This document shows positions 2,099 through 61,611 of a stretch of DNA of 64,000 nt, one piece after another. The position numbers and the translations under genes were made by a program. Under the pieces are notes generated by a model. The model saw only the letters and a list, made by a program, of their open reading frames with translations. It made no database searches and was not told the DNA's origin. Source of the stretch: Candidatus Falkowbacteria bacterium (lineage in GTDB: Bacteria > Patescibacteriota > Patescibacteriia > Patescibacteriales > UBA12075). The stretch is taken from positions 39,425 to 103,424 of the forward strand of contig DOSJ01000010.1 in assembly GCA_003514005.1 (NCBI GenBank). The letters run 5' to 3'. Each line of letters starts with the position of its first letter. The stretch's first letter is position 1.

Positions 2099-3580
<1,482 letters not shown>

Positions 3581-3810
3581 CTAGGGAGAATGGCTCTGAG
3601 TTCAAAGTTTGAAAGTTAAAAGTTATATAGTTATTTCGATAATTCTATACTTTGAAACTTTCTACTTTATAACTCCTAGCCGTCGACACTTCTTTCCACT
3701 TTTTAAACAGTGTATGTTTAAAAAGATGAAGTGCTGGAACAGAATTTATTCTGGTTCAGGATTAAAAGTCTTTGCCTCTAAGTGAGTGGCAAAGCAAACC
3801 GGTTGTAAAA

Positions 3811-3832
3811 AAGTTGGCGCCTGCTAGCCCCA
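3811..3832 (+). other. 3' half of the 16S precursor processing stem
   Basis: AAGTTGGCGCCTGCTAGCCCCA. Its reverse complement matches 1932-1954. Confidence 0.6.
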
Positions 3833-3889
3833 AATCATTCCGCGAAAAAGCGGAAACGGTTTTATGGGGCCGTTCTTTGATTTAAAAGC

Positions 3890-3934
3890 AAAAAAGATTG
3901 GTCCTTACTTTGTACGAGCCAATCTTTTTTGTTT
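3890..3934 (+). terminator. Intrinsic terminator downstream of the 16S gene
   Basis: Stem AAAAAAGATTGG / CCAATCTTTTTT with a 17-nt loop, followed by TTTTGTTT. Confidence 0.5.
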
Positions 3935-3963
3935 GGACCACAAATCAACGAATCGATCACAAA

Positions 3964-3992
3964 TTCACAAATATTTATAATTATACTATAAT
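3964..3992 (+). promoter_or_regulatory. Sigma70-type promoter of the tRNA cluster (TTCACA-17 nt-TATAAT)
   Basis: TTCACA at 3964-3969, a 17-nt spacer, then a perfect TATAAT at 3987-3992, about 55 nt upstream of tRNA-Ile. Confidence 0.5.
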
Positions 3993-4048
3993 AATCCCAA
4001 AGCCTTGTACCACGTTGGGGCATGCCCCGCGTAGCCAAAGGCGAAGTG

Positions 4049-4122
<74 letters not shown>

Positions 4123-4128
4123 CAGAAT

Positions 4129-4197
4129 AATTTATGATTTTAGATTTAGGATTTATGAAATATTTATATCATATATCCTAAATCCAAAATCATAAAT
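4129..4197. repeat. AT-rich inverted repeat filling the tRNA-Ile / tRNA-fMet spacer
   Basis: Arms TTTATGATTTTAGATTTAGGAT and ATCCTAAATCCAAAATCATAAA face each other. Confidence 0.6.
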
Positions 4198-4202
4198 ATC
4201 AT

Positions 4203-4275
4203 AGCGGGGTAGAGCAGTTGGCAGCTCGCCAGGCCCATAACCTGGAGGCCGTCGGTTCGAATCCGACCCCCGCAA
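4203..4275 (+). tRNA. Initiator tRNA-Met (anticodon CAT)
   Basis: Aligns arm by arm with E. coli tRNA-fMet (GCGGGG-T-GAGC...GCTC...CATAA...GTCGGTTCGAATCCGAC-CCCCGCAA). Position 1:72 is an unpaired A:A. No encoded CCA. Confidence 0.8.
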
Positions 4276-4281
4276 CAAATT

Positions 4282-4356
4282 CAATTAAAAATTAAGAATT
4301 AAAAATTAAGAATTAATTGCTCGAATTATTAATTCTTAATTTTTAATTCTTAATTG
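4282..4356. repeat. AT-rich inverted repeat filling the tRNA-fMet / tRNA-Phe spacer
   Basis: Arms built from AATTAAAAATTAAGAATT words and their complement, around a central GCTCGAATTATT. Confidence 0.6.
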
Positions 4357-4368
4357 ATAATTGACGGC

Positions 4369-4440
4369 GCCTCGGTAGCTCAGTGGTAGAGCATGCGACT
4401 GAAAATCGCAGTGTCGTCAGTTCAATTCTGACCCGGGGCA
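4369..4440 (+). tRNA. tRNA-Phe (anticodon GAA)
   Basis: Acceptor GCCTCGG/CCGGGGC, D arm GCTCAGTGGTAGAGC, anticodon stem-loop TGCGA-CTGAAAA-TCGCA, T arm GTCAGTTCAATTCTGAC. Confidence 0.9.
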
Positions 4441-4520
4441 CAAGGAGTTTTCGATTGACGATTTTCGATTTACGAATGTTGAAATATCAATAAATCGGAA
4501 ATCGGAAATCGTAAATTACC

Positions 4521-4591
4521 CGGGGTGTCGTATACCGGTAGTACGCATGGTTTGGGACCATGTTGACTGGGTTCAATTCCCAGCACCCCGA
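4521..4591 (+). tRNA. tRNA-Pro (anticodon TGG)
   Basis: Acceptor CGGGGTG/CACCCCG, anticodon stem-loop CATGG-TTTGGGA-CCATG, T arm CTGGGTTCAATTCCCAG. Confidence 0.85.
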
Positions 4592-4599
4592 CAGACAAT

Positions 4600-4730
4600 A
4601 ATTTTCAATTTTAAATTTTAAATTTTTAAACAATTTTAAATGATTTAATTTTCAATGCTTTAAATAAAAAAAATTAATCATTAAAAATTTTCTCATTCAT
4701 TAAAAATTTAAAATTAAAAATTAAAAATTC
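4600..4730. repeat. AT-rich inverted repeat in the tRNA-Pro / tRNA-Gly spacer
   Basis: AATTTTCAATTTTAAATTTTAAATTTTTAA at the left is roughly complementary to TTAAAAATTTAAAATTAAAAATTAAAAATT at the right. Confidence 0.45.
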
Positions 4731-4736
4731 TCCTCT

Positions 4737-4809
4737 GCGGGTATAGTATAGTGGCTTTTTATGCTAGCCTTCCAAGCTGGAGAGACGGGTTCGATTCCCG
4801 TTACCCGCT
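4737..4809 (+). tRNA. tRNA-Gly (anticodon TCC)
   Basis: Acceptor GCGGGTA/TACCCGC, anticodon stem-loop CTAGC-CTTCCAA-GCTGG, T arm ACGGGTTCGATTCCCGT. Confidence 0.85.
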
Positions 4810-4817
4810 CAAATAAC

Positions 4818-7046: not shown

Positions 7047-7183
7047 TGTCATTCCCGCGAAGGCGGGAATCTCGGTAATAAAGTAAGTAAACAAGAAGTA
7101 TAAAAAATGTTTTTATAAAAAATTTTACAGAAAAATTATTTTGTTATTTTAACACCAAGATTCCCGCCTTCGCGGGAATGACA
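7047..7183. mobile_element. MITE-like element, copy 1 (TGTCATTCCCGCGAAGGCGGGAATC terminal inverted repeats)
   Basis: Left end TGTCATTCCCGCGAAGGCGGGAATCTCGG, right end CCAAGATTCCCGCCTTCGCGGGAATGACA. 137 bp, lying between infB and rbfA. Confidence 0.75.
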
Positions 7184-7222: not shown

Positions 7223-7570
7223 ATGTCAGAACGTATCCTCCAAATCAACGAACTCTTACGCCAGGAAATTGCCGGGCTGATTTCGCGCGAAATATTTTTG
7301 GAAGATGGCTTAATTACCGTAACCCGCGTAATCTGTTCGCCAAACCTGCACAACGCCAAAGCATTCATATCCGTATTGCCGGCTAACCACGCGGGTAGCG
7401 CACTAAGTTTGCTGAGAAGTAACAATTCATTATTCAATAAAGAACTGCGAAAAAAAATAAAAATGAAATTTATACCGAAAATTTTTTGGGCAATCGACGA
7501 ACAGGAACGCTATGTCATGGAAATCGACAAAGTTTTCGATGAAATAAACAATAATGATTCTCTTGATTAA
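7223..7570 (+). CDS. rbfA: Ribosome-binding factor A
   Basis: 115 aa, RbfA-like sequence, in the conserved position after infB. Confidence 0.8.
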   Translation: MSERILQINELLRQEIAGLISREIFLEDGLITVTRVICSPNLHNAKAFISVLPANHAGSALSLLRSNNSLFNKELRKKIKMKFIPKIFWAIDEQERYVMEIDKVFDEINNNDSLD

Positions 7571-8525
7571 CCATTACATAAAGGCCTTGCACAAAATATT
7601 CAAGGCAAAAAACATCCTTCTAGTGACCCATCGGCGTCCGGATGGCGATGCTTTGGCATCGATCAGCGCGATGATGGAGCTTTGCATTGGCATGGAAAAA
7701 AAATTCTCCGCCTACAGCGCGGATCCGGCGCCTGCCCACTATCATTTCTTGCCGCATGTTGAAAAAATCGTCAATGACAAAAACCAACTGGATTTTTCCA
7801 GTTTTGACCTCATAATCGCACTTGACTGCGGGAGTCTGGATCGGACCACCTTGAGCCAAGAAATTTCCGAACGCAGTGAAGACCAATTCGTAATAGAATT
7901 TGATCATCATCCGCGCGTTGACGAATACTCTGATCTGGAAATACGCTATCTTGAAGCGTCTTCAACCGCGGAAATATTATATTATTTTTTCAAAGGAAAC
8001 AATATCAAGTTCAACAAAAACCTAGCCAACTGCATCCTGACCGGAATACTGACTGATACCGGCAATTTCCTTTACCCTTCGACCACGGATGAAACCATAA
8101 AAATCGCGTCCAAGATGCTTCTGCACGGCGCACGCTTTCCGGTTATTCTTGAACATACTTGGCGCAACAAAAGCATGGGCGGCATGAAAATCTGGGGACA
8201 GGCTATGAGTAATCTGCAGATTAACAAAAAATATAATATCGCTTTTACGGTCCTAACCCGCGAAGATATAAACCGCTATCAAGTCAGCGACGAAGAACTG
8301 GAAGGCGTATCCGGCTTTCTCAGCAACCTAAGCGACGTAAACGCGCTTTTATTCCTAAGAGAAGAAGATAATGGCAGAATCAAAGGATCACTCCGAACCT
8401 CACATCCCAAAATAGACATCTCCCGGCTTGCCACTCATCTCGGCGGCGGCGGACACCCAAAGGCTTCCGGATTCATGTTAAAAGGAAAACTGGAGAAAAC
8501 TAAAACAGGATGGCAAATAAATTAG
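7554..8525 (+). CDS. DHH/DHHA1 phosphoesterase (NrnA-like oligoribonuclease/pAp phosphatase)
   Basis: 323 aa. Motifs HRRPDGDALAS, DCG, DHH (EFDHHP) and the DHHA1 motif GGGGHPKASG. Confidence 0.8.
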   Translation: MILLINHYIKALHKIFKAKNILLVTHRRPDGDALASISAMMELCIGMEKKFSAYSADPAPAHYHFLPHVEKIVNDKNQLDFSSFDLIIALDCGSLDRTTLSQEISERSEDQFVIEFDHHPRVDEYSDLEIRYLEASSTAEILYYFFKGNNIKFNKNLANCILTGILTDTGNFLYPSTTDETIKIASKMLLHGARFPVILEHTWRNKSMGGMKIWGQAMSNLQINKKYNIAFTVLTREDINRYQVSDEELEGVSGFLSNLSDVNALLFLREEDNGRIKGSLRTSHPKIDISRLATHLGGGGHPKASGFMLKGKLEKTKTGWQIN

Positions 8526-11591: not shown

Positions 11592-11729
11592 TGTCATTCC
11601 CGCGAAAGCGGGAATCTTGGTTTTAAAACAACGAGATACTTCTTTAGTAAAATTGATATAAAAACACCTTATAAATTTATTTGTTTATTTATTTTTTTTA
11701 CCGAGATTCCCGCCTACGCGGGAATGACA
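11592..11729. mobile_element. MITE-like element, copy 2
   Basis: TGTCATTCCCGCGAAAGCGGGAATCTTGG ... CCGAGATTCCCGCCTACGCGGGAATGACA, 138 bp. Track ORF 11529-11741 is a spurious translation of it. Confidence 0.75.
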
Positions 11730-12616: not shown

Positions 12617-12654
12617 TATTTCAAATATTATAAATATGGTTTTTCAATATACTT

Positions 12655-12842
12655 TGTAGCTTAAGCCGAAAATAAATAATTGATTGTTATTAAATTACTG
12701 CTTGAAGCGGATCATATTACCTACTCGAATGTTTATATGTGTATCTAACTTATATCTAATCCTCAACTTCTGCGCCTTTTCTGAGCTGAGCTTAATTTAA
12801 TAAAAATCAATTATTTATTTTCGGCTGATACGAACTTGAAAT
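12655..12842 (+). repeat. 188-bp palindromic element, copy 1 of 3
   Basis: Near-identical to 51555-51742 and 57661-57848. Terminal inverted repeats of about 34 bp (GCCGAAAATAAATAATTGAT..TTATTAAATTA) flank the conserved core CTGCTTGAAGCGGATCATATTACCTACTCGAATGTTTAT. Confidence 0.8.
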
Positions 12843-12878
12843 TCCAATAAAATAAGTCATAAAAAAAATAAAATATTA

Positions 12879-14504: not shown

Positions 14505-16160
14505 TTATTTTAATTTCTTTTCCATATAAGTTTCATGCAATCGATAGCCTAATTTTCGATAATAACCGCGCACCCCTACCCCTGATATTATTTTTAATAT
14601 ATCATAATTTTCATTTTTTGCAATCTCCTCCGCCTCCCCCAACAATATCTTCCCCAACCCCGCATGCTGAACCTTTTTCTCGCCCCCAACCGAAACCAGC
14701 TCGCCATAAACATGCAGCTCACGAACAATCGCCAACCCCTCATCAACCAATCGCAACCGACAAAATCCCAATAGTTTATCTTCCTTTGAAACTGCTTGAA
14801 TAAAATACTCCTTACCGCCTGAAGCATTATAATTAATAATATTAAATCGAAAATCGAAAATCGAAAATCGAAAATCACCAACTTCCCTACACCGAATACA
14901 CCGACAAACAACCCCCTCATCTTGCATCACCTGCCGCAAATTTGTTATCTTATTCCCAGCAACAATCGATTCACCTGGAATATCCCGAATCAAACGAATA
15001 ATACGAACATATTCCGGCGTTATTTTTTTACACTTAATAATCAACTCACGCAATTGTTTATCTGTATATGGTTTATACTTCCCTTGTTTCCACCAATGAT
15101 AAAGCAAAGAGCCCTTGGTGACAACACAAGGATAAAACTTTATCTGATCCGGCTGAAAACGCTCATCGGTAAAAAGTTGCCGATACATCTTGAAATCACG
15201 CGCCGGCGTTGACCCTGGCAATCCAGGCATTATATGATAAGTAACCTTAAATCCATAATTTTTTAATAAAGCAGTCGCATCCGCGATTTCCTTTACCCCA
15301 TGCCCGCGCTTATTCAGCTTCAAAATCTTATCATCAAGGTGCTGCACCCCAAGCTCCACCCGCGTACACCCAAACGTACGCATCTGTAACAACTCTTCAT
15401 CACAAATATAATCCGGCCGCGTCTCAAGAGTCAAACCAATAATCTGATATTTAGTATTTTCATTCTTCTTCTGTTCTTTTATTAATAAATTTTTTAATTC
15501 TCCTCTTGTCATTCCCGCGAAGGCGGGAATCTTGGTTATAGGCGAAATGGCTTTTTTTTCACCAAGATTCCCGCCTTCGCGGGAATGACAAAATTGGTTT
15601 GCGGCCGCAAAAAGATTCAACACATACCAATACTTATACTTCTCCGGCAAATAAGACCACGTCCCCCCGATAACAATCAACTCAATCTTCGTCGGCTCAT
15701 GCCCATTATTAATCAAAGCCCGCAAACGATCTTGGACTTGAACAAACGGATTATAACCACAACGTATCGCCCGCATCACCGCTGGCTCATTCGAAAGATA
15801 GCTCTGCGGCACGTCTTTTTCAGTTGGGCAATACGCGCATTTTCCCGGGCAAGGATAAGGCTTGGTTAAAACCGCAACCGGCGCGATACCCGACATAGTC
15901 CGCACCGCACGCTTTCGCAAAAGTTTTTTTAATAAGGGGTTCAACCCCTGCGCCAGGGTTTGAACCCCTTTTATAATCTCCGCATTACTAAAAATATCCA
16001 ATCCATACTTCTTGGCTATTTTACGTTTTACAAGCATTAAATCTTTACTGTCAGCAATTTTAGCAGACAACAATTCTTTAATAGCTTCTTCAATTTTTTC
16101 ATTAATATCTTTCATAATACTTTCTAGCACTAGATTAACACTCAGAAAATCATTAGTCAA
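14505..16160 (-). CDS. Elp3-like radical SAM / GNAT acetyltransferase (tRNA U34 modification family)
   Basis: 551 aa. Elp3-type radical-SAM cysteine motif CPGKCAYCP followed by PQSYLSNEPAVMRA, and a C-terminal GNAT region QHAGLGKILLGEAEEIA. The start may instead be the ATG at 16115 (MKDINEK). Confidence 0.75.
   Translation of the reverse strand: MTNDFLSVNLVLESIMKDINEKIEEAIKELLSAKIADSKDLMLVKRKIAKKYGLDIFSNAEIIKGVQTLAQGLNPLLKKLLRKRAVRTMSGIAPVAVLTKPYPCPGKCAYCPTEKDVPQSYLSNEPAVMRAIRCGYNPFVQVQDRLRALINNGHEPTKIELIVIGGTWSYLPEKYKYWYVLNLFAAANQFCHSREGGNLGEKKAISPITKIPAFAGMTRGELKNLLIKEQKKNENTKYQIIGLTLETRPDYICDEELLQMRTFGCTRVELGVQHLDDKILKLNKRGHGVKEIADATALLKNYGFKVTYHIMPGLPGSTPARDFKMYRQLFTDERFQPDQIKFYPCVVTKGSLLYHWWKQGKYKPYTDKQLRELIIKCKKITPEYVRIIRLIRDIPGESIVAGNKITNLRQVMQDEGVVCRCIRCREVGDFRFSIFDFRFNIINYNASGGKEYFIQAVSKEDKLLGFCRLRLVDEGLAIVRELHVYGELVSVGGEKKVQHAGLGKILLGEAEEIAKNENYDILKIISGVGVRGYYRKLGYRLHETYMEKKLK
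14844..14876. repeat. 7-nt tandem array (AAATCGA x4.7) inside the Elp3-like CDS
   Basis: AAATCGA repeats at 14844, 14851, 14858 and 14865, plus a partial unit. It encodes DFRFSIFDFRF. The same array occurs at 23113-23143. Confidence 0.85.
15507..15590. mobile_element. MITE-like element, copy 3 (84 bp, in frame inside the Elp3-like CDS)
   Basis: TGTCATTCCCGCGAAGGCGGGAATCTTGG ... CCAAGATTCCCGCCTTCGCGGGAATGACA. It is 84 bp (28 codons) and is translated as ..CHSREGGNLGEKKAISPITKIPAFAGMTRG.. Confidence 0.8.
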
Positions 16161-24114: not shown

Positions 24115-24306
24115 AAATTGAGACTTGAGAAAAGTTTTTTTTCTGTCATTCCCGCGCAGGCGGGAATCTTGGTTAAAAAATCACTTAACATTTTATAATA
24201 ACGTTGGCTAAAAAATCTTTAGCTCAAAAATCAGTTTTTCTTTTTTTTAAACCGAGATTCCCGCCTGCGCGGGAATGACAAGAGTTTTTTTCTCAAGTCT
24301 CAAATT
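24115..24306. mobile_element. MITE-like element, copy 4 (137-bp core 24144-24280 plus outer inverted repeat)
   Basis: The core has the TGTCATTCCCGCGCAGGCGGGAATC ends, and its internal sequence is nearly identical to copy 7 (52930-53065). The outer arms are AAATTGAGACTTGAGAAAA / TTTTCTCAAGTCTCAAATT. Confidence 0.75.
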
Positions 24307-25775: not shown

Positions 25776-26231
25776 TCAACCTGGCGGCAATGAACCCCCC
25801 GTACCTCCTCCCGCATCTCCCTTACTATCTCCAAACGGCAAAGCCTTGAATACAAATGCGGTTATAGCATAGGCTGATACGATAATAACAAGTCCAATAA
25901 TCGCTTTTTTGATTGTTTCTTTAGCTGTCGTAACCTTTTGCTCTTCTCCTCCAGCCGTCATCCAAATAAAACCGGCATAAATCATTAATATTATAAAAAT
26001 AATAGCGAGTAATCCCAAAAACGCTTTAATTACTATTGAAATAATTTCACCAAGCTCGGCACCGTCGCTGTCGCCAATATTAAATCCTGAGCTTTTAGCA
26101 AATTTCCCCATCAAACTTTCTCCACCGACAACTTCATTCGGATCATTCAACGGTCCTGCCAGAGAAGTGCCTACAAAAAAACTAAAAGAGATAATAATAA
26201 TAGACAAACTTATCAAAATATATTTTCGCAT
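25776..26231 (-). CDS. VirB2/TrbC-like pilin-family small membrane protein, paralogue 8 (Gly-rich C-terminal tail)
   Basis: 151 aa. Signal peptide, then two TM helices around the conserved loop YAGFIWMTAGGEEQKVTTAKETIKKAIIGLVI. The tail is GDSKGDAGGGTGGSLPPG. Confidence 0.7.
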   Translation of the reverse strand: MRKYILISLSIIIISFSFFVGTSLAGPLNDPNEVVGGESLMGKFAKSSGFNIGDSDGAELGEIISIVIKAFLGLLAIIFIILMIYAGFIWMTAGGEEQKVTTAKETIKKAIIGLVIIVSAYAITAFVFKALPFGDSKGDAGGGTGGSLPPG

Positions 26232-26241
26232 CTTTTTAAAA

Positions 26242-26616
26242 TTAATTTAATAACTTAAATAATACAAAATTACTAATCGCATACGAGCCAACGGTTATAA
26301 TTAATCCGATAATCGCGCGTCGAATCGTGCTTAATGCCTTATCTACCTTTGACTGATCGCCCGCCGCAATCATATAATTGTACCCGGCGTAAAGCATCAA
26401 AACTACAAATATTATTCCCAGTATCGAAAAAAATATGCTTACGATTTTACCTGCGTTTGTAACTAAATCGTTTTCGCTTGTAACGCCGGAATAACCGCCC
26501 TTAACCCCAACATCACTTAGCTTGTCTAAAGGTGACTGCGCAAATACAAAATATGGTAAAATTAAAACTACCACAAGACACATTAACACAAAAATATTTT
26601 TGATTTTAGTTTTCAT
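26242..26616 (-). CDS. VirB2/TrbC-like pilin-family small membrane protein, paralogue 7
   Basis: 124 aa, same architecture (YAGYNYMIAAGDQSKVDKALSTIRRAIIGLII). Confidence 0.7.
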   Translation of the reverse strand: MKTKIKNIFVLMCLVVVLILPYFVFAQSPLDKLSDVGVKGGYSGVTSENDLVTNAGKIVSIFFSILGIIFVVLMLYAGYNYMIAAGDQSKVDKALSTIRRAIIGLIITVGSYAISNFVLFKLLN

Positions 26617-26632
26617 TTTTTTATTTTTAGTT

Positions 26633-27079
26633 TTATAAATTTAAATCCGGTTCGCTTTCTTCCCAGCTAGAGTCATTTTTAAACACATCTTTTGTAACAT
26701 TTTGAATGACAAAAAAAGAAATCGCATAAGCCAAAACTATAACAACTACACCAATAACAGCGGCGGTTATCAAGTTTTTTGCTCTTGTCACTTCCTGTTC
26801 ATTATCACGCGCCATCATCCAGATATATCCGCCATAAATCATTAAGATTAAGAATATAACTCCCAAAATTGATAATACAACACTGATTATTTTTGCAATC
26901 ATACTTTCTGCGCTTACACCTGTATCGTAACCACCGGAAACTGCAACTGTATTTGCATTACCAAACGCATCTTTAAGATCTTGTGCATGTGCCACAAAAA
27001 CAAAGCTTAGGCTGCACAATACAATAAATATGTCAACAAATATTTTTTTTTGCTTCAAAAACATATATTTATTACGCAA
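26633..27079 (-). CDS. VirB2/TrbC-like pilin-family small membrane protein, paralogue 6
   Basis: 148 aa (YGGYIWMMARDNEQEVTRAKNLITAAVIGVVV) with an acidic C-terminal tail. Confidence 0.7.
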   Translation of the reverse strand: MRNKYMFLKQKKIFVDIFIVLCSLSFVFVAHAQDLKDAFGNANTVAVSGGYDTGVSAESMIAKIISVVLSILGVIFLILMIYGGYIWMMARDNEQEVTRAKNLITAAVIGVVVIVLAYAISFFVIQNVTKDVFKNDSSWEESEPDLNL

Positions 27080-27080
27080 A

Positions 27081-27467
27081 TCATTTTAATAAATTCTCAC
27101 CTACAAAATTCGTTATCGCATACGCGGCTATTACTATTACAAGTCCGATTAGGGCATTGCGAATAATATCTTTAGCCCTGGTTACCTCTGACTCAACCCC
27201 TCGCGAGTTCATCCAGATAAAACCACCCCAGATAGTAAAGATTAAAAACAAAACGCCGATTATCGATAAAAGAATCTGGATTAAAAGTCCGACCGAGCCC
27301 AAGGCGCCTAGTTTTGATATTTTTGAGCCTAAGTGTCCGGTTCCTTCCGCAGTTTTTTCAAGGCTATTATTAAAAATCGATTTTGCATCTTCGCCCTCTG
27401 CTAACACAAATGAAATATTTATAAATAACAAAAAACAAATTATTCCAATTGTAAATATTCTCTTCAT
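27081..27467 (-). CDS. VirB2/TrbC-like pilin-family small membrane protein, paralogue 5
   Basis: The internal ATG at 27467 (MKRIFTIGIICFLL) gives a signal peptide and removes the overlap with paralogue 4. Loop: WGGFIWMNSRGVESEVTRAKDIIRNALIGLVI. Confidence 0.7.
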   Translation of the reverse strand: MKRIFTIGIICFLLFINISFVLAEGEDAKSIFNNSLEKTAEGTGHLGSKISKLGALGSVGLLIQILLSIIGVLFLIFTIWGGFIWMNSRGVESEVTRAKDIIRNALIGLVIVIAAYAITNFVGENLLK

Positions 27468-27474
27468 AAAAATT

Positions 27475-27876
27475 TTATAACAATTGTTGTCCAATAAATT
27501 GTGTGATCGCATAGGCCGCCAAAACAACCACAAGCCCGATAATCGCGGCCTGAATCAAATCCTTGGCTTTTGTAACCTCGCCTTCATTTCCGCGAGCAAT
27601 CATCCATATAAATCCGCCATATATCATTAGTCCCAAAAACAAAATACCAATCAAAGAAAGACCAACACCGATTACTTTTCCAATCGCGCTGGGTAAGCTT
27701 GCCATGCCACCATCCGGTATTTTCCCATAACCTTTTTTAGCGGCTTCATCAAGCCCAGTAATTGCGCTGGAATCAACCGCCATAGCCATAGGTAAAACAA
27801 AAACAAAAAACAGTAAAATAATAAATAATATTCTTACGATGTTTTTTTTATTCTTTATAATTCCCGTCATGTTCAT
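27475..27876 (-). CDS. VirB2/TrbC-like pilin-family small membrane protein, paralogue 4
   Basis: 133 aa (YGGFIWMIARGNEGEVTKAKDLIQAAIIGLVV). Confidence 0.7.
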   Translation of the reverse strand: MNMTGIIKNKKNIVRILFIILLFFVFVLPMAMAVDSSAITGLDEAAKKGYGKIPDGGMASLPSAIGKVIGVGLSLIGILFLGLMIYGGFIWMIARGNEGEVTKAKDLIQAAIIGLVVVLAAYAITQFIGQQLL

Positions 27877-27937
27877 TAATCGAAAACAGATAATAGCAAA
27901 ATAAGCAAGCTATTATCTGTTAAAATACAAAATGATT

Positions 27938-28339
27938 TTATAAATCGCCATTAATTGCGTCGGCAGACATATTTATTACAAAATTCACGATTGCAAAGGC
28001 GGCAATAATAACTACAAGTCCAATAACTCCGGCGATAATAATACTTTTCGCTTTTCCAACACGATCATCATTCCCGGCAGCCGTCATCCAAACAAAACCT
28101 CCGTACAAAATTATAACTACGGCAATAATTCCTAAAAAGGTAATCAAATATTTAATAATCGTTACTGCCATATCCCGAACATCTTCATCTGCCGCAGCCG
28201 GCAAACCGACATTTTCTGCATACTTTATTCCTAATGACTCATCTAAAGATTGTGCTTGGCTTAAGTTTGCTTGAAAAAATAAAGAAAAAACACACAAAGA
28301 TACAATTGTAGCGACTAAATACTTTTTAAAAGTAAGCAT
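27938..28339 (-). CDS. VirB2/TrbC-like pilin-family small membrane protein, paralogue 3
   Basis: 133 aa (YGGFVWMTAAGNDDRVGKAKSIIIAGVIGLVV). Same subtype as paralogues 1 and 2. Confidence 0.7.
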   Translation of the reverse strand: MLTFKKYLVATIVSLCVFSLFFQANLSQAQSLDESLGIKYAENVGLPAAADEDVRDMAVTIIKYLITFLGIIAVVIILYGGFVWMTAAGNDDRVGKAKSIIIAGVIGLVVIIAAFAIVNFVINMSADAINGDL

Positions 28340-28376
28340 ATTTTTAAATTTTTCTAAATAAGTAGCTGTAATTATT

Positions 28377-28754
28377 TTAAATGTTTCCGCTTATCGCGTC
28401 ATTAGTTATATTAACGATAAATGTAATTATTGCAAATGCCGACAATATAACTACTAGTCCGATTGCGCCGGCAATTATGATTTTTTTTGCGTCTTCAACA
28501 CTATCCTGATTTCCGGCAGCAGTCATCCATTTAAAACCTCCGTATAATATAATCACAACGGCAATAATTCCCAAAAATGTCATAAGATATTTAACGATTT
28601 CAACCATCATCTGTTTTGGGTCTGTTTCTGAAGCTACTTGCAAATCTAAATTTTCAGCATAATCCAGACCAATATCTTGCGCGCTCACCGGAATAATATT
28701 AATTAAATTTAAAAAAATTATTAAAATCGCTAATACGGTTTTAAAGAATGTCAT
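28377..28754 (-). CDS. VirB2/TrbC-like pilin-family small membrane protein, paralogue 2
   Basis: 125 aa, very close to paralogue 1 (SAQDIGLDYAENLDLQ...ITNDAISGNI). Confidence 0.7.
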   Translation of the reverse strand: MTFFKTVLAILIIFLNLINIIPVSAQDIGLDYAENLDLQVASETDPKQMMVEIVKYLMTFLGIIAVVIILYGGFKWMTAAGNQDSVEDAKKIIIAGAIGLVVILSAFAIITFIVNITNDAISGNI

Positions 28755-28870
28755 AAAATTGTATTGTTAATTATTATTTAGTCCACCCTTATGGCAATAT
28801 TTTTTTATTGCCATAAGGGTGGATCCCTAGAATTCTAGAGGGACCCACGATATTTTGCGAATTACAGGTT

Positions 28871-29260
28871 TTAGATGTTTCCGCTCAAAGCATCATTTGT
28901 AATGCCAACAACGAAAGTAACGATTGCGAATGCGCACAAAATAATTATCAAGCCGATAACACCGGCGATAATTAATTTTTTTGCCTCAGCAACCTTGTCT
29001 TCGTTTCCAGCCGCAGTCATCCATTTGAAACCACCCAACAATATTACTACAACAGCGATAATACCCAAAAAAGTCATCAAATACTTGACAATGTCTACAG
29101 CCATTTGCTTAGGATCGGATTCGTTAGCTGCCTGTAAATCAAGGTTATTAGCATAATCCAAACCTATATCTTGCGCTGATACCGGTAATATAGCCATTGT
29201 TGAAAACAAAAAAACCATAACTATCGCCGCAAAAATATTTCGAAATAAATTTTTATTCAT
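28871..29260 (-). CDS. VirB2/TrbC-like pilin-family small membrane protein, paralogue 1 (likely major subunit)
   Basis: 129 aa. It is the only array member inspected that has a strong Shine-Dalgarno sequence (GGGGAGGTGA 6 nt before the ATG), and it is followed by a 16-bp perfect hairpin. Confidence 0.75.
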   Translation of the reverse strand: MNKNLFRNIFAAIVMVFLFSTMAILPVSAQDIGLDYANNLDLQAANESDPKQMAVDIVKYLMTFLGIIAVVVILLGGFKWMTAAGNEDKVAEAKKLIIAGVIGLIIILCAFAIVTFVVGITNDALSGNI

Positions 29261-33094: not shown

Positions 33095-33125
33095 TAAATA
33101 TCGATTCTTCGACATATTTTGTAGT

Positions 33126-33815
33126 TTAGGCCGAAAATAAAACACTCCCCCAATCATCTTCCTGAATATCCGCCAACTCACAACACTCCTCAATCCCAAA
33201 AACCCCAACTGCCGTCCGTTTAAGTTCTGTAAGATATGCCCCGCACCCGAGATTCTGCCCAATATCATGTGCCAAAGACCGGATATATGTTCCCGAAGAA
33301 CACTTAACCCGAATTTTCAATAAAGGATAATTATATTCAAGTAGCTCAAGCTCATATATATTAATCTCAACCGCCTTCCGCTCAATCTCTATCCCTTTCC
33401 GCGCCAACTCATACAACTTTTTCCCACCAACCTTCTTCGCGCTAAACATCGGCGGAGTCTGTTTTTGCTTTCCTGTATATTTAATTAAAACATTTTCAAT
33501 GTCGAATCTATCCATTTCTAACTTCTCACTTCTAACTTCTAACTTTCCTGTTCGATCAAAAGTATCCGTAACCGCCCCCAAATGCAAAACCGCTTCGTAC
33601 TCTTTGTCCAACTTAACATATTGACTAATCAAACGCGTTGCTTCACGACCAATTGCCACAACCAAAACTCCGCTCGCAAACGGATCCAAGGTACCGGCAT
33701 GGCCGATTTTTTTTATTCCGGTTATTTTTCGAAGTTTAGCAATAACACCAAATGATGTTGGACCAACTGGCTTGTTGATTAATAAAAAACCTGATTTTTT
33801 GATAATTGTTTGCAT
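33126..33815 (-). CDS. truB: tRNA pseudouridine(55) synthase
   Basis: 229 aa. Catalytic-Asp motif GHAGTLDP and QTPPMFSA. Contains a 7-nt tandem array at 33514-33548. Confidence 0.9.
   Translation of the reverse strand: MQTIIKKSGFLLINKPVGPTSFGVIAKLRKITGIKKIGHAGTLDPFASGVLVVAIGREATRLISQYVKLDKEYEAVLHLGAVTDTFDRTGKLEVRSEKLEMDRFDIENVLIKYTGKQKQTPPMFSAKKVGGKKLYELARKGIEIERKAVEINIYELELLEYNYPLLKIRVKCSSGTYIRSLAHDIGQNLGCGAYLTELKRTAVGVFGIEECCELADIQEDDWGSVLFSA
33514..33548. repeat. 7-nt tandem array (ACTTCTA x5, imperfect) inside truB
   Basis: ATTTCTA ACTTCTC ACTTCTA ACTTCTA ACTTTCC, encoding GKLEVRSEKLEM. The same word family makes up the intergenic stretch 54421-54456. Confidence 0.75.
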
Positions 33816-34425: not shown

Positions 34426-34770
34426 TTAATTCCCAAGACTAACAATAGCCTTTAGAATTAATTAGGCTTATGCTTAATTGAATATTTAAGTCGGCCAAAA
34501 CAAATTCGGCCGCAATCGCCATATATTTATGGCAAATCGTTCTTTCGAAATCATGGAGCTGCATATTCGCTCCAAAAAACGGACAACATGCAGCTCCTCT
34601 TTTCTCTCTTTCTTACTTTATCGCTTTAGCGACAAAGTGAGCATGGGGATAAAAGCTTCTATTTCCTTAAGCAAGAGATAGAAAAACATTAACACCGCCG
34701 GACTCTTCAAGCGGTGTTTTTGTTGTATAGATAAATTATACTCAAGTATTTAATACAGAAAAGTATTTGC

Positions 34771-34853
34771 TGATATTTTATGTTTATTCGATTTGGGCGA
34801 CTGCACCTTCCATACGCCCCATGAGAAGAAACATAAAATATCAGCAAATACGT
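34771..34853. repeat. Perfect 23-bp-arm inverted repeat with a 37-nt GC-richer loop
   Basis: GTATTTGCTGATATTTTATGTTT ... AAACATAAAATATCAGCAAATAC. The loop holds an inner stem TGGGCG/CGCCCA. Track ORF 34750-34947 is probably spurious. Confidence 0.65.
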
Positions 34854-34923
34854 TGGTTGTATAAAAATTCAAATCCGTAATTTTTAATATTGATAAAAAA
34901 AAGCGTATAATACAAATAAACAT

Positions 34924-38677: not shown

Positions 38678-38749
38678 TGTCATTCCCGCGAAGGCGGGAA
38701 TCCAGATTCGATTGATAAACCCTGGATTCCCGCCTTCGCGGGAATGACA
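38678..38749. mobile_element. MITE-like element, copy 5 (short, 72 bp)
   Basis: TGTCATTCCCGCGAAGGCGGGAATCCAG ... CTGGATTCCCGCCTTCGCGGGAATGACA. An outer inverted repeat TGAGACCTGAGAAA / TTTCTCAAGTTTCA flanks it. Track ORF 38576-38776 is spurious. Confidence 0.75.
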
Positions 38750-47669: not shown

Positions 47670-47768
47670 TAACTCATTTATATTAAAATATATTTTGTGA
47701 CTTAGGCCAAAAATGAATGGTTCTTTCGGCAATTCTGTGGACAAATTTTTAAACACTTTTCCTCTACT

Positions 47769-47799
47769 TGTCATTCCCGCGTAGGCGGGAATCTTGGTT
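47769..47799. mobile_element. Solo terminal repeat of the MITE-like family (copy 6, half element)
   Basis: TGTCATTCCCGCGTAGGCGGGAATCTTGGTT has no partner end nearby. A fragment of the 188-bp element end (GACTTAGGCCAAAAAT) lies next to it at 47700-47716. Confidence 0.65.
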
Positions 47800-51480: not shown

Positions 51481-51554
51481 CTATTTTTTCTCAAACAAAA
51501 AAACATCGGCCTATCTTGGGCTGATGTTTTTTGTTTTGATTTTTTAACGTATTC

Positions 51555-51742
51555 TGTAACTTAGGCCGAAAATAAATAATTGATTTTTATTAAATTACTG
51601 CTTGAAGCGGATCATATTACCTACTCGAATGTTTATGTGTGTATCTAACTAATATCTCACCCTCTACTTCTGCGCTTTTTCTGAGCTGAGCTTAATTTAA
51701 TAAAAATCAATTATTTATTTTCGGCCGATACGGATGTGAAAT
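51555..51742 (+). repeat. 188-bp palindromic element, copy 2 of 3
   Basis: See 12655-12842. Lies between the convergent genes efp and recA. Confidence 0.8.
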
Positions 51743-51773
51743 AACCGCAAAATATTTTGATGAGCCTTTGCTT

Positions 51774-52929: not shown

Positions 52930-53065
52930 TGTCATTCCCGCGTAGGCGGGAATCTTGATTAAAAAATTACTTAATATTTTTTAATACTGTTGGCTAAAAA
53001 ATCTCTAACTTAAAAATTAGTTTTTCTTTTTTTAAACCGAGATTCCCGCCTACGCGGGAATGACA
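52930..53065. mobile_element. MITE-like element, copy 7
   Basis: TGTCATTCCCGCGTAGGCGGGAATCTTG ... CCGAGATTCCCGCCTACGCGGGAATGACA. Its internal sequence is about 85-90% identical by eye to copy 4. Confidence 0.75.
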
Positions 53066-57532: not shown

Positions 57533-57660
57533 AAATTTTATTGTAATTATTTAATGAGTATATTTAATATATTATATTGTACACCAAAACTAAGTATTTT
57601 AAAAATAGTTGACTATAAATTACAAGAATAAATTTTAATTTTTAATTCTAAAACATATTT

Positions 57661-57848
57661 TTTAACTTAGGCCAAAAATAAATAATTGATTTTTATTAAA
57701 TTACTGCTTGAAGCGGATCATATTACCTACTCGAATGTTTATGTATGAATCTAACTATAATCCAATCCTCTGCTTATGCGCTTTTTCTGAGCTGAGCTTA
57801 ATTTAATGAAAATCAATTATTTATTTTTGGCCGATACGGATGTAAAAT
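57661..57848 (+). repeat. 188-bp palindromic element, copy 3 of 3
   Basis: See 12655-12842. Confidence 0.8.
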
Positions 57849-57952
57849 GTCCACAAGATATGTAAAAAATCATTTTGTATAGTGAATTCTTAATCAAAAA
57901 ACTCCCCCTGGGTACGAAGGAGTTTTTTGAAAGAAGGGGTTATGTGAAAATA

Positions 57953-60516: not shown

Positions 60517-60688
60517 AGACATTCTAAAATATATTTAATTATTTTTTAAAATTACTCGCCTTTACGTTATTACTACTAGCTTTCATATTAAAGTAATGAA
60601 TAAAATGTCTTATCTTGTATAGCCATTTAAATTTTAAAAGTTTAAAGGCTTAATTTTAAAAAATAATTAAATATATTTCAGAATGTCA
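60517..60688. repeat. Long AT-rich inverted repeat (about 36-bp arms, about 97-nt centre), architecture like the 188-bp family
   Basis: CATTCTAAAATATATTTAATTATTTTTTAAAATTA ... TAATTTTAAAAAATAATTAAATATATTTCAGAATG, with one mismatch between the arms. Confidence 0.7.
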
Positions 60689-61460: not shown

Positions 61461-61611
61461 TGTCATTCCCGACACTCCTTGCCCCCGGCAGGGAATAGAT
61501 ATTAAATGATCGGGAATCCAGGGATAATAGATTCAAATATCTTAACAAGTTAGCCTAATTTAAAACATTAAGTGCTTTTCCTACTGGATTCCCGCCTTCG
61601 CGGGAATGACA
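61461..61611. mobile_element. MITE-like element, copy 8 (degenerate left end)
   Basis: TGTCATTCCCGACACTCC... at the left and TGGATTCCCGCCTTCGCGGGAATGACA at the right. Confidence 0.6.

What the first reader, a model, noticed from the sequence alone, without database searches (positions are those of the whole stretch)
12655..12842. 188-bp palindromic element in three same-orientation copies with conserved ends and core but a variable ~45-nt centre
Copies at 12655-12842, 51555-51742 and 57661-57848 are all exactly 188 bp and all lie in the same orientation on the plus strand.

Each has terminal inverted repeats of about 34 bp (GGCCGAAAATAAATAATTGATTTTTATTAAATTA). The left core, CTGCTTGAAGCGGATCATATTACCTACTCGAATGTTTAT, is almost invariant. 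So is the right core, CTGCGCTTTTTCTGAGCTGAGC. About 14 substitutions are packed into the ~45 nt between them.

No ORF is conserved in either strand. The substitutions are not adenine-specific, so this is not a DGR template/variable pair.

Fragments of the element end (TTAGGCCGAAAATAAA) also occur at 33123-33140, where they encode the last codons and stop of truB, and at 47700-47716. The element at 60517-60688 has the same architecture (about 36-bp AT-rich arms ending ..AAATTA|CT and GC|TTAATTT.., about 97-nt centre) but a different sequence.

A conserved scaffold with a hypervariable window could be a MITE under relaxed constraint. It could also be a structured or guide-like non-coding RNA family.
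Basis: seen in the sequence. Interest (0 to 1): 0.6.

Follow-up and report, generated by a model that had tools for sequence, protein, structure and literature searches.

The report
Foldback insertion repeat in a Falkowbacteria genome
A roughly 215-bp non-coding, hairpin-forming repeat has been inserted many times between housekeeping genes in one groundwater Falkowbacteria (CPR) lineage; it behaves like a small non-autonomous mobile element, not a guide RNA, so it is well preserved but fairly ordinary.

Summary
Three same-strand copies share perfect 34-bp inverted arms, an invariant 39-nt left core, a near-invariant 22-nt right core and a variable centre. None of this is expected by chance.

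The true unit is longer, about 213-218 bp, with a weak outer 11-bp inverted repeat. The genome is Candidatus Falkowbacteria GW2011_GWC2_38_22. In about 115 kb of it I found five full copies, one internal-deletion derivative, two left-end remnants and two copies of a diverged sister family (60518-60687).

The copies are insertions. The recA-efp spacer is 294 bp here but 60 bp in the closest sister species. In a 93%-identical recA relative, homology stops exactly at the element's outer end. No homologue exists in 80 related genomes, viral contigs, phages, plasmids or Rfam.

The centre and outer flanks differ by about 25% between copies, and the arms and cores by 1-5%. The only covariation is in the arms. 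The 95-nt interior folds no better than shuffled sequence, and the variable centres match nothing else.

All ten family members (f1 and f2, including remnants) lie on the C-rich strand, antisense to co-directional neighbours.

Best reading: a lineage-specific MITE/REPIN-like foldback element. The guide-RNA idea is not supported.

The parts
12646..12863 (+). Copy c1, full homology unit, between the folD start (12616) and the glyA stop (12879), both on the - strand. Arms 12664-12697 and 12793-12826; variable centre about 12737-12770.
51546..51758 (+). Copy c2, full unit, between the efp terminator (51498-51532) and the recA stop (51774). The right boundary 51758|51759 is fixed by comparison with the recA-93% relative L110.
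51564..51597 (+). c2 left 34-bp arm. It pairs perfectly with 51693-51726.
51598..51636 (+). c2 left core, 39 nt. One substitution in 5 copies (1% pairwise divergence). Contains TATTACCTACTCG, partly shared with family f2 (TATTACTACTAGC).
51637..51670 (+). c2 variable centre, 34 nt. 19 of 34 columns vary among 5 copies (25% pairwise). G-poor on the + strand, predicted unpaired.
51671..51692 (+). c2 right core, 22 nt (TGCGCTTTTTCTGAGCTGAGCT). 2.7% pairwise divergence.
51693..51726 (+). c2 right 34-bp arm.
57652..57869 (+). Copy c3, between the yifB start (57532) and the terminator of the Big_13 protein gene (57904-57922), both genes on the - strand. Arms 57670-57703 and 57799-57832. Carries the compensated G:C to A:T change at arm position 5.
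33110..33141 (+). Left-end remnant: outer flank plus the first 13 nt of the arm. It supplies the last four codons and the stop codon of truB (33126-33815, - strand).
47684..47718 (+). Left-end remnant: outer flank plus the first 10-19 nt of the arm. It lies at or just upstream of the 5' end of the BcrAD_BadFG-family gene (43017-47774 or 47669, - strand).
60518..60687 (+). Sister family f2: 37-40-bp arms, 90-nt interior, same orientation. A second f2 copy at L117 3009-3181 shows the same pattern of conserved arms and stem-proximal cores with a variable centre, plus a compensated substitution and a compensated 1-nt indel in the arms.

Best explanation
This is a lineage-specific family of non-autonomous foldback insertion elements, of the MITE/REPIN kind, in Candidatus Falkowbacteria GW2011_GWC2_38_22.

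Anatomy. The unit is about 215 bp: a weak outer 11-bp inverted repeat (consensus ACATATTTTGT...ACAAAATATGT), then a 163-bp module. The module has two perfect 34-bp AT-rich arms enclosing a 95-nt asymmetric interior.

Shown:
- The units were inserted into short intergenic spacers just past gene ends or terminators.
- They are absent from the nearest relatives.
- They leave deletion derivatives and one-ended remnants.
- They encode nothing.
- They always lie in one orientation relative to strand composition and neighbouring genes.
- The arms and the stem-proximal 39-nt and 22-nt cores change about 9-fold more slowly than the apical centre and the outer flanks.
- Changes in the arms tend to be matched on the other arm.

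Inferred:
- The element is moved in trans by an enzyme encoded elsewhere in the genome.
- The active form is a single strand folded into the long hairpin, as in REPIN/RAYT or IS200/IS605-type transposition. That would account for the strand rule and for the need for pairing.
- The arms and the stem-loop junction cores are the recognition surface.
- The 34-45-nt apical centre is an unconstrained loop that simply drifts. It is not a guide or a diversified cassette.

Once inserted, the perfect hairpin is read through in the antisense form with the neighbouring genes. It may then secondarily affect mRNA processing or stability, as Correia and ERIC elements do. That step is not shown.
For: Insertion:
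- The recA-efp spacer is 294 bp here. It is 60 bp in L109 (RecA 96%), 139 bp in L107 and L111, and mostly 60-120 bp in 80 relatives.
- In L110 (recA DNA 93% identical), homology downstream of recA ends exactly at the element's outer end.
- The f2 site is 35 bp in L107 against 306 bp here.

Lineage restriction:
- No hit with a genome contigs 31-mer.
- No hit in three viral scans.
- The one true hit in the metagenome scan (L007) is a second contig of the same organism.
- No hit by BLAST or covariance model in 1.3 Mb from 80 related genomes.
- No hit in phages or plasmids.
- Sister-species loci hold no long inverted repeats at all.

Decay products:
- An internal deletion between AAAAT microhomologies at L007 3070-3160.
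- Left-end remnants at 33110 and 47684.

Rate heterogeneity:
- 1.6% substitutions per site from the consensus in arms and cores, against 14.1% in the centre and outer flanks (Fisher p=4e-16).
- The same pattern holds in family f2.

Hairpin maintenance:
- Two compensated pairs in f1.
- A compensated substitution and a compensated indel in f2.
- f1 and f2 arms differ, yet each is self-complementary.

Not an RNA gene:
- No Rfam match.
- The interior folds no better than shuffles.
- No conserved ORF.

Orientation:
- All 10 members (5 full f1, 1 deleted, 2 remnants, 2 f2) have the '+ form' on the C-rich strand.
- On the second contig the orientation flips together with GC skew and gene direction.
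- All eight members that lie between co-directional genes are antisense to them.

Precedent:
- REPINs combine conserved ends, a less conserved spacer, a long hairpin with compensatory changes, and singlet remnants (PMC3116915).
- Bacterial MITEs are non-coding AT-rich units under 200 bp that form long stem-loops. YPAL has internal inverted repeats (PMC2229807).
Against: - No mobilising enzyme was found. There are no transposase, integrase or RT domains in the window or its extensions.
- The one IS seen in this genome (L117 4182-5280, DDE transposase) has unrelated 19-bp ends, TAGGACTTACGCGTTTGCC.
- Target-site duplications are not clear. Only c3 shows a candidate, TAAAA, in AT-rich context.
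- The outermost ends should matter most to a cut-and-paste transposase, yet they are as diverged as the free centre (24-26%), while the internal module is conserved. This fits selection on resident copies at least as well as selection for mobility.
- Each arm alone has no REP-like sub-hairpin.
- No presence/absence polymorphism was seen among the roughly 20 near-identical assemblies of this population.
- Only five full copies were available, so covariation statistics are weak (17/500 shuffles).
Confidence: 0.6

Rival explanations
1. Exapted resident elements. The copies arrived by insertion but are now kept by selection in place, as cis-acting hairpins in read-through transcripts. They could be RNase III or stability determinants, insulators between adjacent genes, or protein-binding DNA. 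That would explain why the internal module is conserved while the transposon-like outer ends decay.
For: - Outer flanks and centre are about 25% diverged, while arms and cores are 1-5% diverged in every copy.
- recA synonymous-scale divergence to the nearest lineage that lacks c2 is of the same order, 7% over all sites with 99% protein identity. The copies could therefore be old enough to have drifted in place.
- Orientation is fixed relative to flanking genes in 8 of 8 co-directional contexts.
- Positions lie just past stop codons and terminators.
- A relative (L113) has an unrelated 190-nt hairpin in the same glyA-folD spacer.
- Correia and ERIC elements have such roles (PMC2649163; PMC2229807).
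Against: - A hairpin-only role does not explain the invariant, unstructured 39-nt core.
- Remnants and a deletion derivative show that copies are lost without obvious penalty.
- Sister species manage without any such elements.
- The same pattern could come from diverged source elements that are selected for mobility.
- No expression data are available.
Confidence: 0.2
2. A family of small non-coding RNA genes. A long closing stem presents a conserved scaffold and a variable, G-poor single-stranded loop (CACCCUCU, AUCCUCA) that pairs with targets such as Shine-Dalgarno regions.
For: - On the + strand the variable stretch is predicted to be unpaired, and it is C/U-rich and resembles an anti-Shine-Dalgarno sequence.
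- One-sided changes in a predicted inner helix keep U-G/U-A pairing on the + strand.
- A TAnnnT hexamer in the left outer flank is kept in all eight left ends.
- Scaffold conservation is strong.
Against: - No Rfam family matches.
- There are no compensatory changes outside the arms.
- The interior folds no better than shuffles on either strand (z from -0.8 to +1.3).
- No promoter or terminator reaches the scan thresholds.
- The variable centres have no complementary sites in about 110 kb of the genome.
- The family is absent from 80 related genomes and from sister species.
- The single wobble-type changes point to opposite strands in f1 and f2.
- A perfect 34-bp duplex is unusual for a stable bacterial sRNA.
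Confidence: 0.08
3. A mobile promoter cassette. The conserved left core carries an outward-facing promoter on the gene-sense (-) strand (TACACA-18-TAATAT) that drives the downstream gene, which would explain the fixed orientation.
For: - The left core is the most conserved segment, and part of it (TATTAC(C)TACT) is shared between f1 and f2.
- In 8 of 8 co-directional contexts a gene lies downstream of the - form.
- Correia elements create promoters (PMC2649163).
Against: - The candidate hexamers match only 8 of 12 consensus positions and were not reported by the scan.
- The putative -35 lies in the variable centre.
- c2 has no downstream gene in that direction, because efp converges.
- The model does not explain why both arms and the right core are conserved.
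Confidence: 0.05
4. Targeted hypermutation of the centre, by a DGR or a similar system.
For: Substitutions cluster strongly in one 34-45-nt window.
Against: - The spectrum is mixed and dominated by transitions, not adenine-specific.
- The centre is no more diverged than the element's own outer flanks.
- No reverse transcriptase is present in about 115 kb.
- No template/variable pair relationship exists.
Confidence: 0.01

Closest known systems
REPINs (REP doublets forming hairpins) mobilised by RAYT Y1 transposases (Bertels & Rainey 2011, PMC3116915)
   Same: Non-coding and extragenic. A long hairpin made of two conserved inverted ends around a less conserved spacer. Compensatory changes across the hairpin. 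One-ended remnants. Confined to a lineage. Presumed single-strand intermediate.
   Different: - REPIN ends are REP sequences that are themselves small palindromes. The f1 arms are not.
- REPINs are about 90-110 bp and pair along nearly their whole length. f1 has a 95-nt unpaired, asymmetric interior with two invariant cores.
- No RAYT could be looked for in the whole genome.
- A separate, truly REPIN-like family does exist in this window (GTCATTCCCGCGAAGGCGGGAATC doublets).
Bacterial MITEs with conserved cores: Correia/CREE (Neisseria), ERIC, and YPAL/RU-2 (PMC2229807; PMC2649163)
   Same: AT-rich non-coding intergenic units of 100-200 bp. Inverted repeats around a conserved core. Long stem-loops when transcribed. 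Filled and empty sites between relatives. Fusion of element ends to gene ends (here the truB stop). YPAL likewise has internal rather than terminal inverted repeats.
   Different: - No clear TA ends or target-site duplication.
- The arms are longer (34 bp, perfect).
- Strict single orientation relative to strand and genes.
- The host is a roughly 1-Mb CPR genome.
- No IHF, RNase III or promoter activity has been tested. A WATCAANNNNTTR match in the arm is only a lead.
IS200/IS605-derived palindrome-associated elements (single-strand 'peel and paste' transposition; PMC5027513, PMC6006769)
   Same: Dependence on hairpins, and a strong orientation bias relative to replication strand.
   Different: Those elements have separate subterminal hairpins at each end and no long end-to-end inverted repeat. 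No TnpA, TnpB or guide tetranucleotide was identified here.
Rickettsia palindromic elements (RPE)
   Same: Palindromic repeats that spread in a small reduced genome and can end up inside coding sequence.
   Different: RPEs insert in-frame within genes and are translated. f1 is intergenic apart from one remnant that donates four codons and a stop.

Membership tests
MITE (non-autonomous inverted-repeat element) | Small (<~300 bp), non-coding, multi-copy | tested here: met
   Unit of about 215 bp. Five full copies plus derivatives in about 115 kb. No conserved ORF.
MITE (non-autonomous inverted-repeat element) | Terminal inverted repeats | tested here: inconclusive
   The perfect 34-bp repeats are subterminal. 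The outer 11-bp repeat exists only in the consensus and is degraded in individual copies.
MITE (non-autonomous inverted-repeat element) | Target-site duplication | tested here: inconclusive
   Only c3 shows a plausible 5-bp direct repeat (TAAAA). The AT-rich flanks and about 12% drift per copy prevent a call.
MITE (non-autonomous inverted-repeat element) | Filled versus empty sites between relatives | tested here: met
   The recA-efp spacer is 294 bp against 60 bp (L109). Homology breaks at the element end in L110. The f2 site is 306 bp against 35 bp.
MITE (non-autonomous inverted-repeat element) | Autonomous partner IS with matching ends | tested here: not met
   The only IS seen (L117 4182-5280, DDE) has unrelated ends. 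The rest of the genome could not be examined, so this holds for about 115 kb only.
REPIN/RAYT | Each end is a REP, a short palindrome, in inverted doublet | tested here: not met
   Each arm alone folds no better than shuffles (z +0.5 and +0.3).
REPIN/RAYT | Whole unit forms a hairpin with compensatory changes | tested here: met
   z of -7.7 and -8.8 for the unit. Compensated pairs in f1 and f2.
REPIN/RAYT | Single-copy RAYT (Y1/HUH) gene flanked by the repeats | not testable with these tools
None was found in the about 115 kb examined.
Structured non-coding RNA family | Covariation supporting a conserved fold beyond a closing stem | tested here: not met
   The only two-sided changes are at arm positions 1 and 5. 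None occur in the interior. Interior z-scores range from -0.8 to +1.3.
Structured non-coding RNA family | Conservation across related species, or a match to a curated family | tested here: not met
   No Rfam hit. No covariance model hit in 80 related genomes or in sister species.
Structured non-coding RNA family | Discrete transcript with its own promoter and terminator | not testable with these tools
   Consensus scans found nothing conserved. No RNA-seq is available.
Diversity-generating retroelement | Adenine-specific template/variable pair plus reverse transcriptase | tested here: not met
   Mixed substitution spectrum. No RT domain in any annotated gene of the loci examined.
IS200/IS605-type single-strand element | Orientation bias with respect to replication strand | tested here: met
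   10 of 10 members have the same form on the C-rich strand, including a flip within one contig. This is confounded with gene direction.
IS200/IS605-type single-strand element | Distinct subterminal hairpins at the left and right ends, with TnpA/TnpB | tested here: not met
   There is one end-to-end hairpin only. No TnpA or TnpB was found.

The most novel reading that the evidence does not exclude
The f1/f2 elements are not mere junk insertions. They would be orientation-locked functional modules of a CPR bacterium: a perfect 34-40-bp stem frames a conserved unstructured scaffold of about 60 nt plus a freely varying loop of 35-45 nt. Acting as RNA or as single-stranded DNA during replication, each copy would present a different C/U-rich, anti-Shine-Dalgarno-like sequence. 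That would make them a dispersed set of trans-acting regulators or decoys spread by transposition.
Probability: 0.1. Interest if true: 0.6.

Novelty: new member of a known kind. Interest (0 to 1): 0.3.

Why it matters
CPR/Patescibacteria genomes are about 1 Mb and are usually thought to be poor in mobile DNA. This Falkowbacteria lineage carries at least five hairpin-repeat families, about one element per 3-5 kb, while its nearest sister species show none in the loci examined. That makes it a convenient natural case for studying three things:
- how foldback repeats invade a minimal genome;
- why the arms of such repeats stay complementary;
- why such repeats obey a strand rule.

For the specific finding the main value is negative. 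The 'conserved scaffold with hypervariable window' is an apical loop drifting at the neutral rate, not a guide or a diversification system.

Tried and rejected
Searches that found nothing:
- Rfam at gathering thresholds and at E<=10.
- Exact-pattern scans of genome contigs (31-mer) and viral contigs (three patterns).
- An 18-mer scan of metagenome contigs gave 18 loci, of which 17 were chance hits.
- BLAST and a covariance model (R1) against 80 RecA-anchored loci of related genomes, 1.3 Mb in total.
- Phage and plasmid collections.

Hypotheses tested and dropped:
- Guide or target: the variable centres were compared with about 110 kb of the same genome. No match beyond 13-15 nt at chance level.
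- Small peptide: only arm-derived TTG ORFs appear, and the 6-codon MIRFKQ mini-ORF has no counterpart in f2/f2b.
- The short L007 hairpin as an ancestral empty target. It is better explained as a deletion between AAAAT repeats of a full element.
- The outer flanks as a pre-existing target motif. The L110 comparison puts the homology break outside them, and no empty right-flank motif exists in the window.
- The DDE IS on the second contig as the partner. Its ends are unrelated.
- attC, dif, 6S, Y RNA, retron and ribozyme resemblances were considered from memory only. None had any support from Rfam or from the anatomy.

Test that could not be done:
- Looking for an orthologous copy in a moderately diverged relative, to measure in-place conservation. 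The only close relatives found either lack the element (L109, L107, L110, L111) or have rearranged or different spacers (L112, L113).

Full report
**1. The observation**

- The 34-mer GGCCGAAAATAAATAATTGATTTTTATTAAATTA occurs six times with at most 2 mismatches. These are three inverted pairs separated by 95 nt, against 0 in 100 shuffles.
- The 39-nt left core is identical in all three copies.
- Each unit folds into one long hairpin (z = -7.7 and -8.8 for the two strands).
- The '188 bp' frame is arbitrary. The arms bound 163 bp, and copy-to-copy homology runs about 18 nt further left and about 30 nt further right.
- That gives units of about 213-218 bp (12646-12863, 51546-51758, 57652-57869). 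Their consensus ends form a weak 11-bp inverted repeat, ACATATTTTGT / ACAAAATATGT.

**2. The organism and further copies**

Flanking proteins are identical to those of Candidatus Falkowbacteria bacterium GW2011_GWC2_38_22, a Rifle-aquifer CPR bacterium. The same contig recurs in ENA, JGI, NCBI and Logan assemblies, so the repeats are not assembly artefacts.

Additional members found:
- A fifth full copy (c5) lies about 8 kb left of the window, in the same orientation (L101 19318-19546).
- An 18-mer scan of metagenome contigs gave one true hit, L007. Its proteins are exact matches to this organism, so it is a second contig of the same genome.
- L007 holds a full copy (7396-7616) and a short derivative (3070-3160). 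In the derivative, the sequence between two AAAAT microhomologies has been deleted, but both outer flanks are kept.
- Two left-end remnants lie in the window: 33110-33141 and 47684-47718.
- The first remnant supplies the last four codons and the stop of truB.
- No right-end remnants exist in the window.

The element at 60518-60687 (f2) is a distant relative.
- Global alignment z is about 5, driven by the arms.
- The covariance model hits it at E=0.01 on the + strand only.
- A second f2 copy lies on the other contig (L117 3009-3181).

**3. The copies are insertions**

- recA and efp converge in most relatives, with spacers of about 60-120 bp.
- That spacer is 60 bp in the closest sister species (L109, RecA 96%), 139 bp in L107 and L111, and 294 bp here.
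- In L110, recA DNA is 93% identical and the protein 99%. The 14 nt after the stop codon still align, and homology ends exactly at the outer end of c2 (51758|51759). This shows the outer flanks belong to the inserted unit.
- The f2 site is 35 bp in L107 against 306 bp here.
- Sister-species loci contain no long inverted repeats at all.
- No homologue was found by BLAST or by the covariance model in 1.3 Mb from 80 related genomes.
- None was found in viral contigs, in phage or plasmid collections, or in Rfam.

**4. Pattern of change**

Mean pairwise divergence among the five full copies:

| Segment | Divergence |
|---|---|
| Outer flanks | 24-26% |
| Arms | 3.5-4.7% |
| Left core | 1% |
| Centre (34 nt) | 25% |
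| Right core | 2.7% |

- Measured from the consensus, the constrained segments carry 1.6% substitutions per site and the free ones 14.1% (Fisher p = 4e-16).
- The spectrum is mixed and transition-rich, not A-specific.
- So the centre is not hypervariable. It drifts at the same rate as the element's own outer flanks.
- The two f2 copies show the same layout: 12 of 13 interior differences fall in the middle 55 nt or so, and none in the last 27 nt.

The arms change in a concerted way.
- In f1, arm positions 1 and 5 each show one G:C to A:T double change. There is also one U-G change and two plain mismatches.
- In f2 there is a compensated C:G to T:A change and a compensated 1-nt indel.
- f1 and f2 arms differ at about a third of positions, yet each is self-complementary.
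- With five sequences the formal covariation test is only suggestive (17/500 shuffles).

**5. No sign of an RNA gene**

- There is no covariation outside the arms on either strand.
- The 95-nt interior folds no better than shuffled sequence, as RNA (z from -0.8 to +1.3) or as DNA (z +1.0 and +1.4).
- No promoter or terminator reaches the scan thresholds within the units.
- No ORF is conserved.
- The variable centres have no complementary or identical sites in about 110 kb of the same genome.
- The single wobble-type changes favour the + strand in f1 and the - strand in f2, so there is no consistent strand signal.

**6. Orientation rule**

- GC skew is negative across the whole window and positive across L007.
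- All ten members place the same form on the C-rich strand: five full f1, the deleted copy, two remnants and two f2.
- On the second contig, f2b (+) and the f1 copies (-) lie on opposite strands, and skew and gene direction flip between them.
- All eight members that lie between co-directional genes are antisense to those genes. c2 and one remnant lie between convergent genes.
- The two-sided chance of 10 out of 10 is about 0.002.
- Replication strand and gene direction are confounded in the data available.

**7. Mechanism**

Taken together, the evidence fits a non-autonomous foldback insertion element:
- proven insertions, lineage restriction, decay products and no coding capacity;
- a requirement for pairing between long arms;
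- conserved stem-proximal cores with a free apical loop;
- a strict strand rule.

I infer, but have not shown, that the element is mobilised as a folded single strand.
- REPINs show the same combination of conserved inverted ends, a looser spacer, compensatory changes and one-ended remnants (PMC3116915).
- IS200/IS605-type single-strand transposition is linked to the replication fork (PMC5027513).
- Several IS families show a family-specific orientation bias relative to replication (PMC3971601).

It is not a REPIN in the strict sense.
- The arms are not themselves palindromic.
- The interior is long and unpaired.

No partner enzyme was found in about 115 kb. The one IS seen (DDE, L117 4182-5280) has unrelated ends.

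Template-switch 'correction' of quasi-palindromes is established knowledge, not tested here. It could produce matched arm changes without selection.

**8. The main unresolved point**

The outermost ends are as diverged as the free centre, while the internal module is nearly invariant.
- For a cut-and-paste element one would expect the reverse.
- This is the best argument that resident copies are under selection in place. They could act as cis hairpins in read-through transcripts, as Correia and ERIC elements do (PMC2649163, PMC2229807), or as a protein-binding site.
- Alternatively, the copies may descend from long-diverged source elements.
- I could not find an orthologous copy in a moderately diverged relative to decide between these.

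**9. Verdict**

- The element is a new, lineage-restricted member of the known class of bacterial palindromic intergenic repeats.
- It is notable mainly for sitting in a CPR genome that is unusually rich in such repeats.

Noticed in passing
window 7048-7182, 11593-11728, 15508-15589, 24145-24279, 38679-38748, 52931-53064; singlets at 47770-47793 and 61587-61610: A REP-like 24-mer, GTCATTCCCGCGAAGGCGGGAATC, occurs 14 times against 0 expected. It contains its own palindrome, ATTCCCGC-N4-GCGGGAAT. Twelve of the 14 form six head-to-head inverted doublets and two are singlets. This is the REPIN architecture, and it suggests a RAYT-type enzyme may exist in this CPR genome.
   Followed up: partly
L101 20468-20611; L007 2411-2552 and 9987-10129; L117 20335-20487: Another hairpin family (f4). 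The 65-nt centres are 85-89% identical between copies. The roughly 40-bp arms are only 64-72% identical between copies, yet 95-100% self-complementary within each copy. This is very strong concerted change of the two arms.
   Followed up: partly
window 34757-34857; L101 16819-16913; L007 11453-11547: A third hairpin family: 30-33-bp arms (ATCGTATTTGCTGATATTTTAT...) around a 35-nt GC-rich loop.
   Followed up: no
L113 397-587 (Logan SRR22388083; FolD 78% relative): The glyA-folD spacer of a related species is itself a roughly 190-nt hairpin (z = -8.5). It is unrelated in sequence to c1, which occupies the same spacer here. It contains AATTATTTATTTTAGG, close to the f1 arm AATTATTTATTTTCGG.
   Followed up: partly
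L117 4182-5280: An IS of about 1.1 kb with perfect 19-bp ends (TAGGACTTACGCGTTTGCC) that encodes a 324-aa DDE transposase (DDE_5/DDE_Tnp_1). It sits where GC skew changes sign on the second contig of this genome.
   Followed up: partly
window 33126-33815 (-): truB ends inside an element remnant, and its TruB_C_2 domain matches only positions 1-41 of 66. An element-associated event may therefore have truncated or replaced the 3' end of the gene.
   Followed up: no
window 2099-4810: The 16S rRNA gene is followed by five tRNA genes (Ile, Met, Phe, Pro, Gly) and then infB, with no 23S. The tRNA spacers hold AT-rich inverted repeats at 4130-4197, 4281-4364 and 4598-4731.
   Followed up: no
window 25776-29260 (-): A tandem array of eight T4SS_pilin-domain paralogues of 124-151 aa.
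   Followed up: no
window 51712-51724 and the equivalent position in every arm: The f1 arm contains AATCAATTATTTA, which fits the IHF consensus WATCAANNNNTTR as I recall it from memory. It is not conserved in f2 and was not tested.
   Followed up: no
L114/L116 versus L115, after position about 16080: Different assemblies of the second contig continue into different genes after the TIM gene: a TPR protein in one and gyrA in the other. This suggests a repeat-mediated assembly join or a real rearrangement.
   Followed up: no
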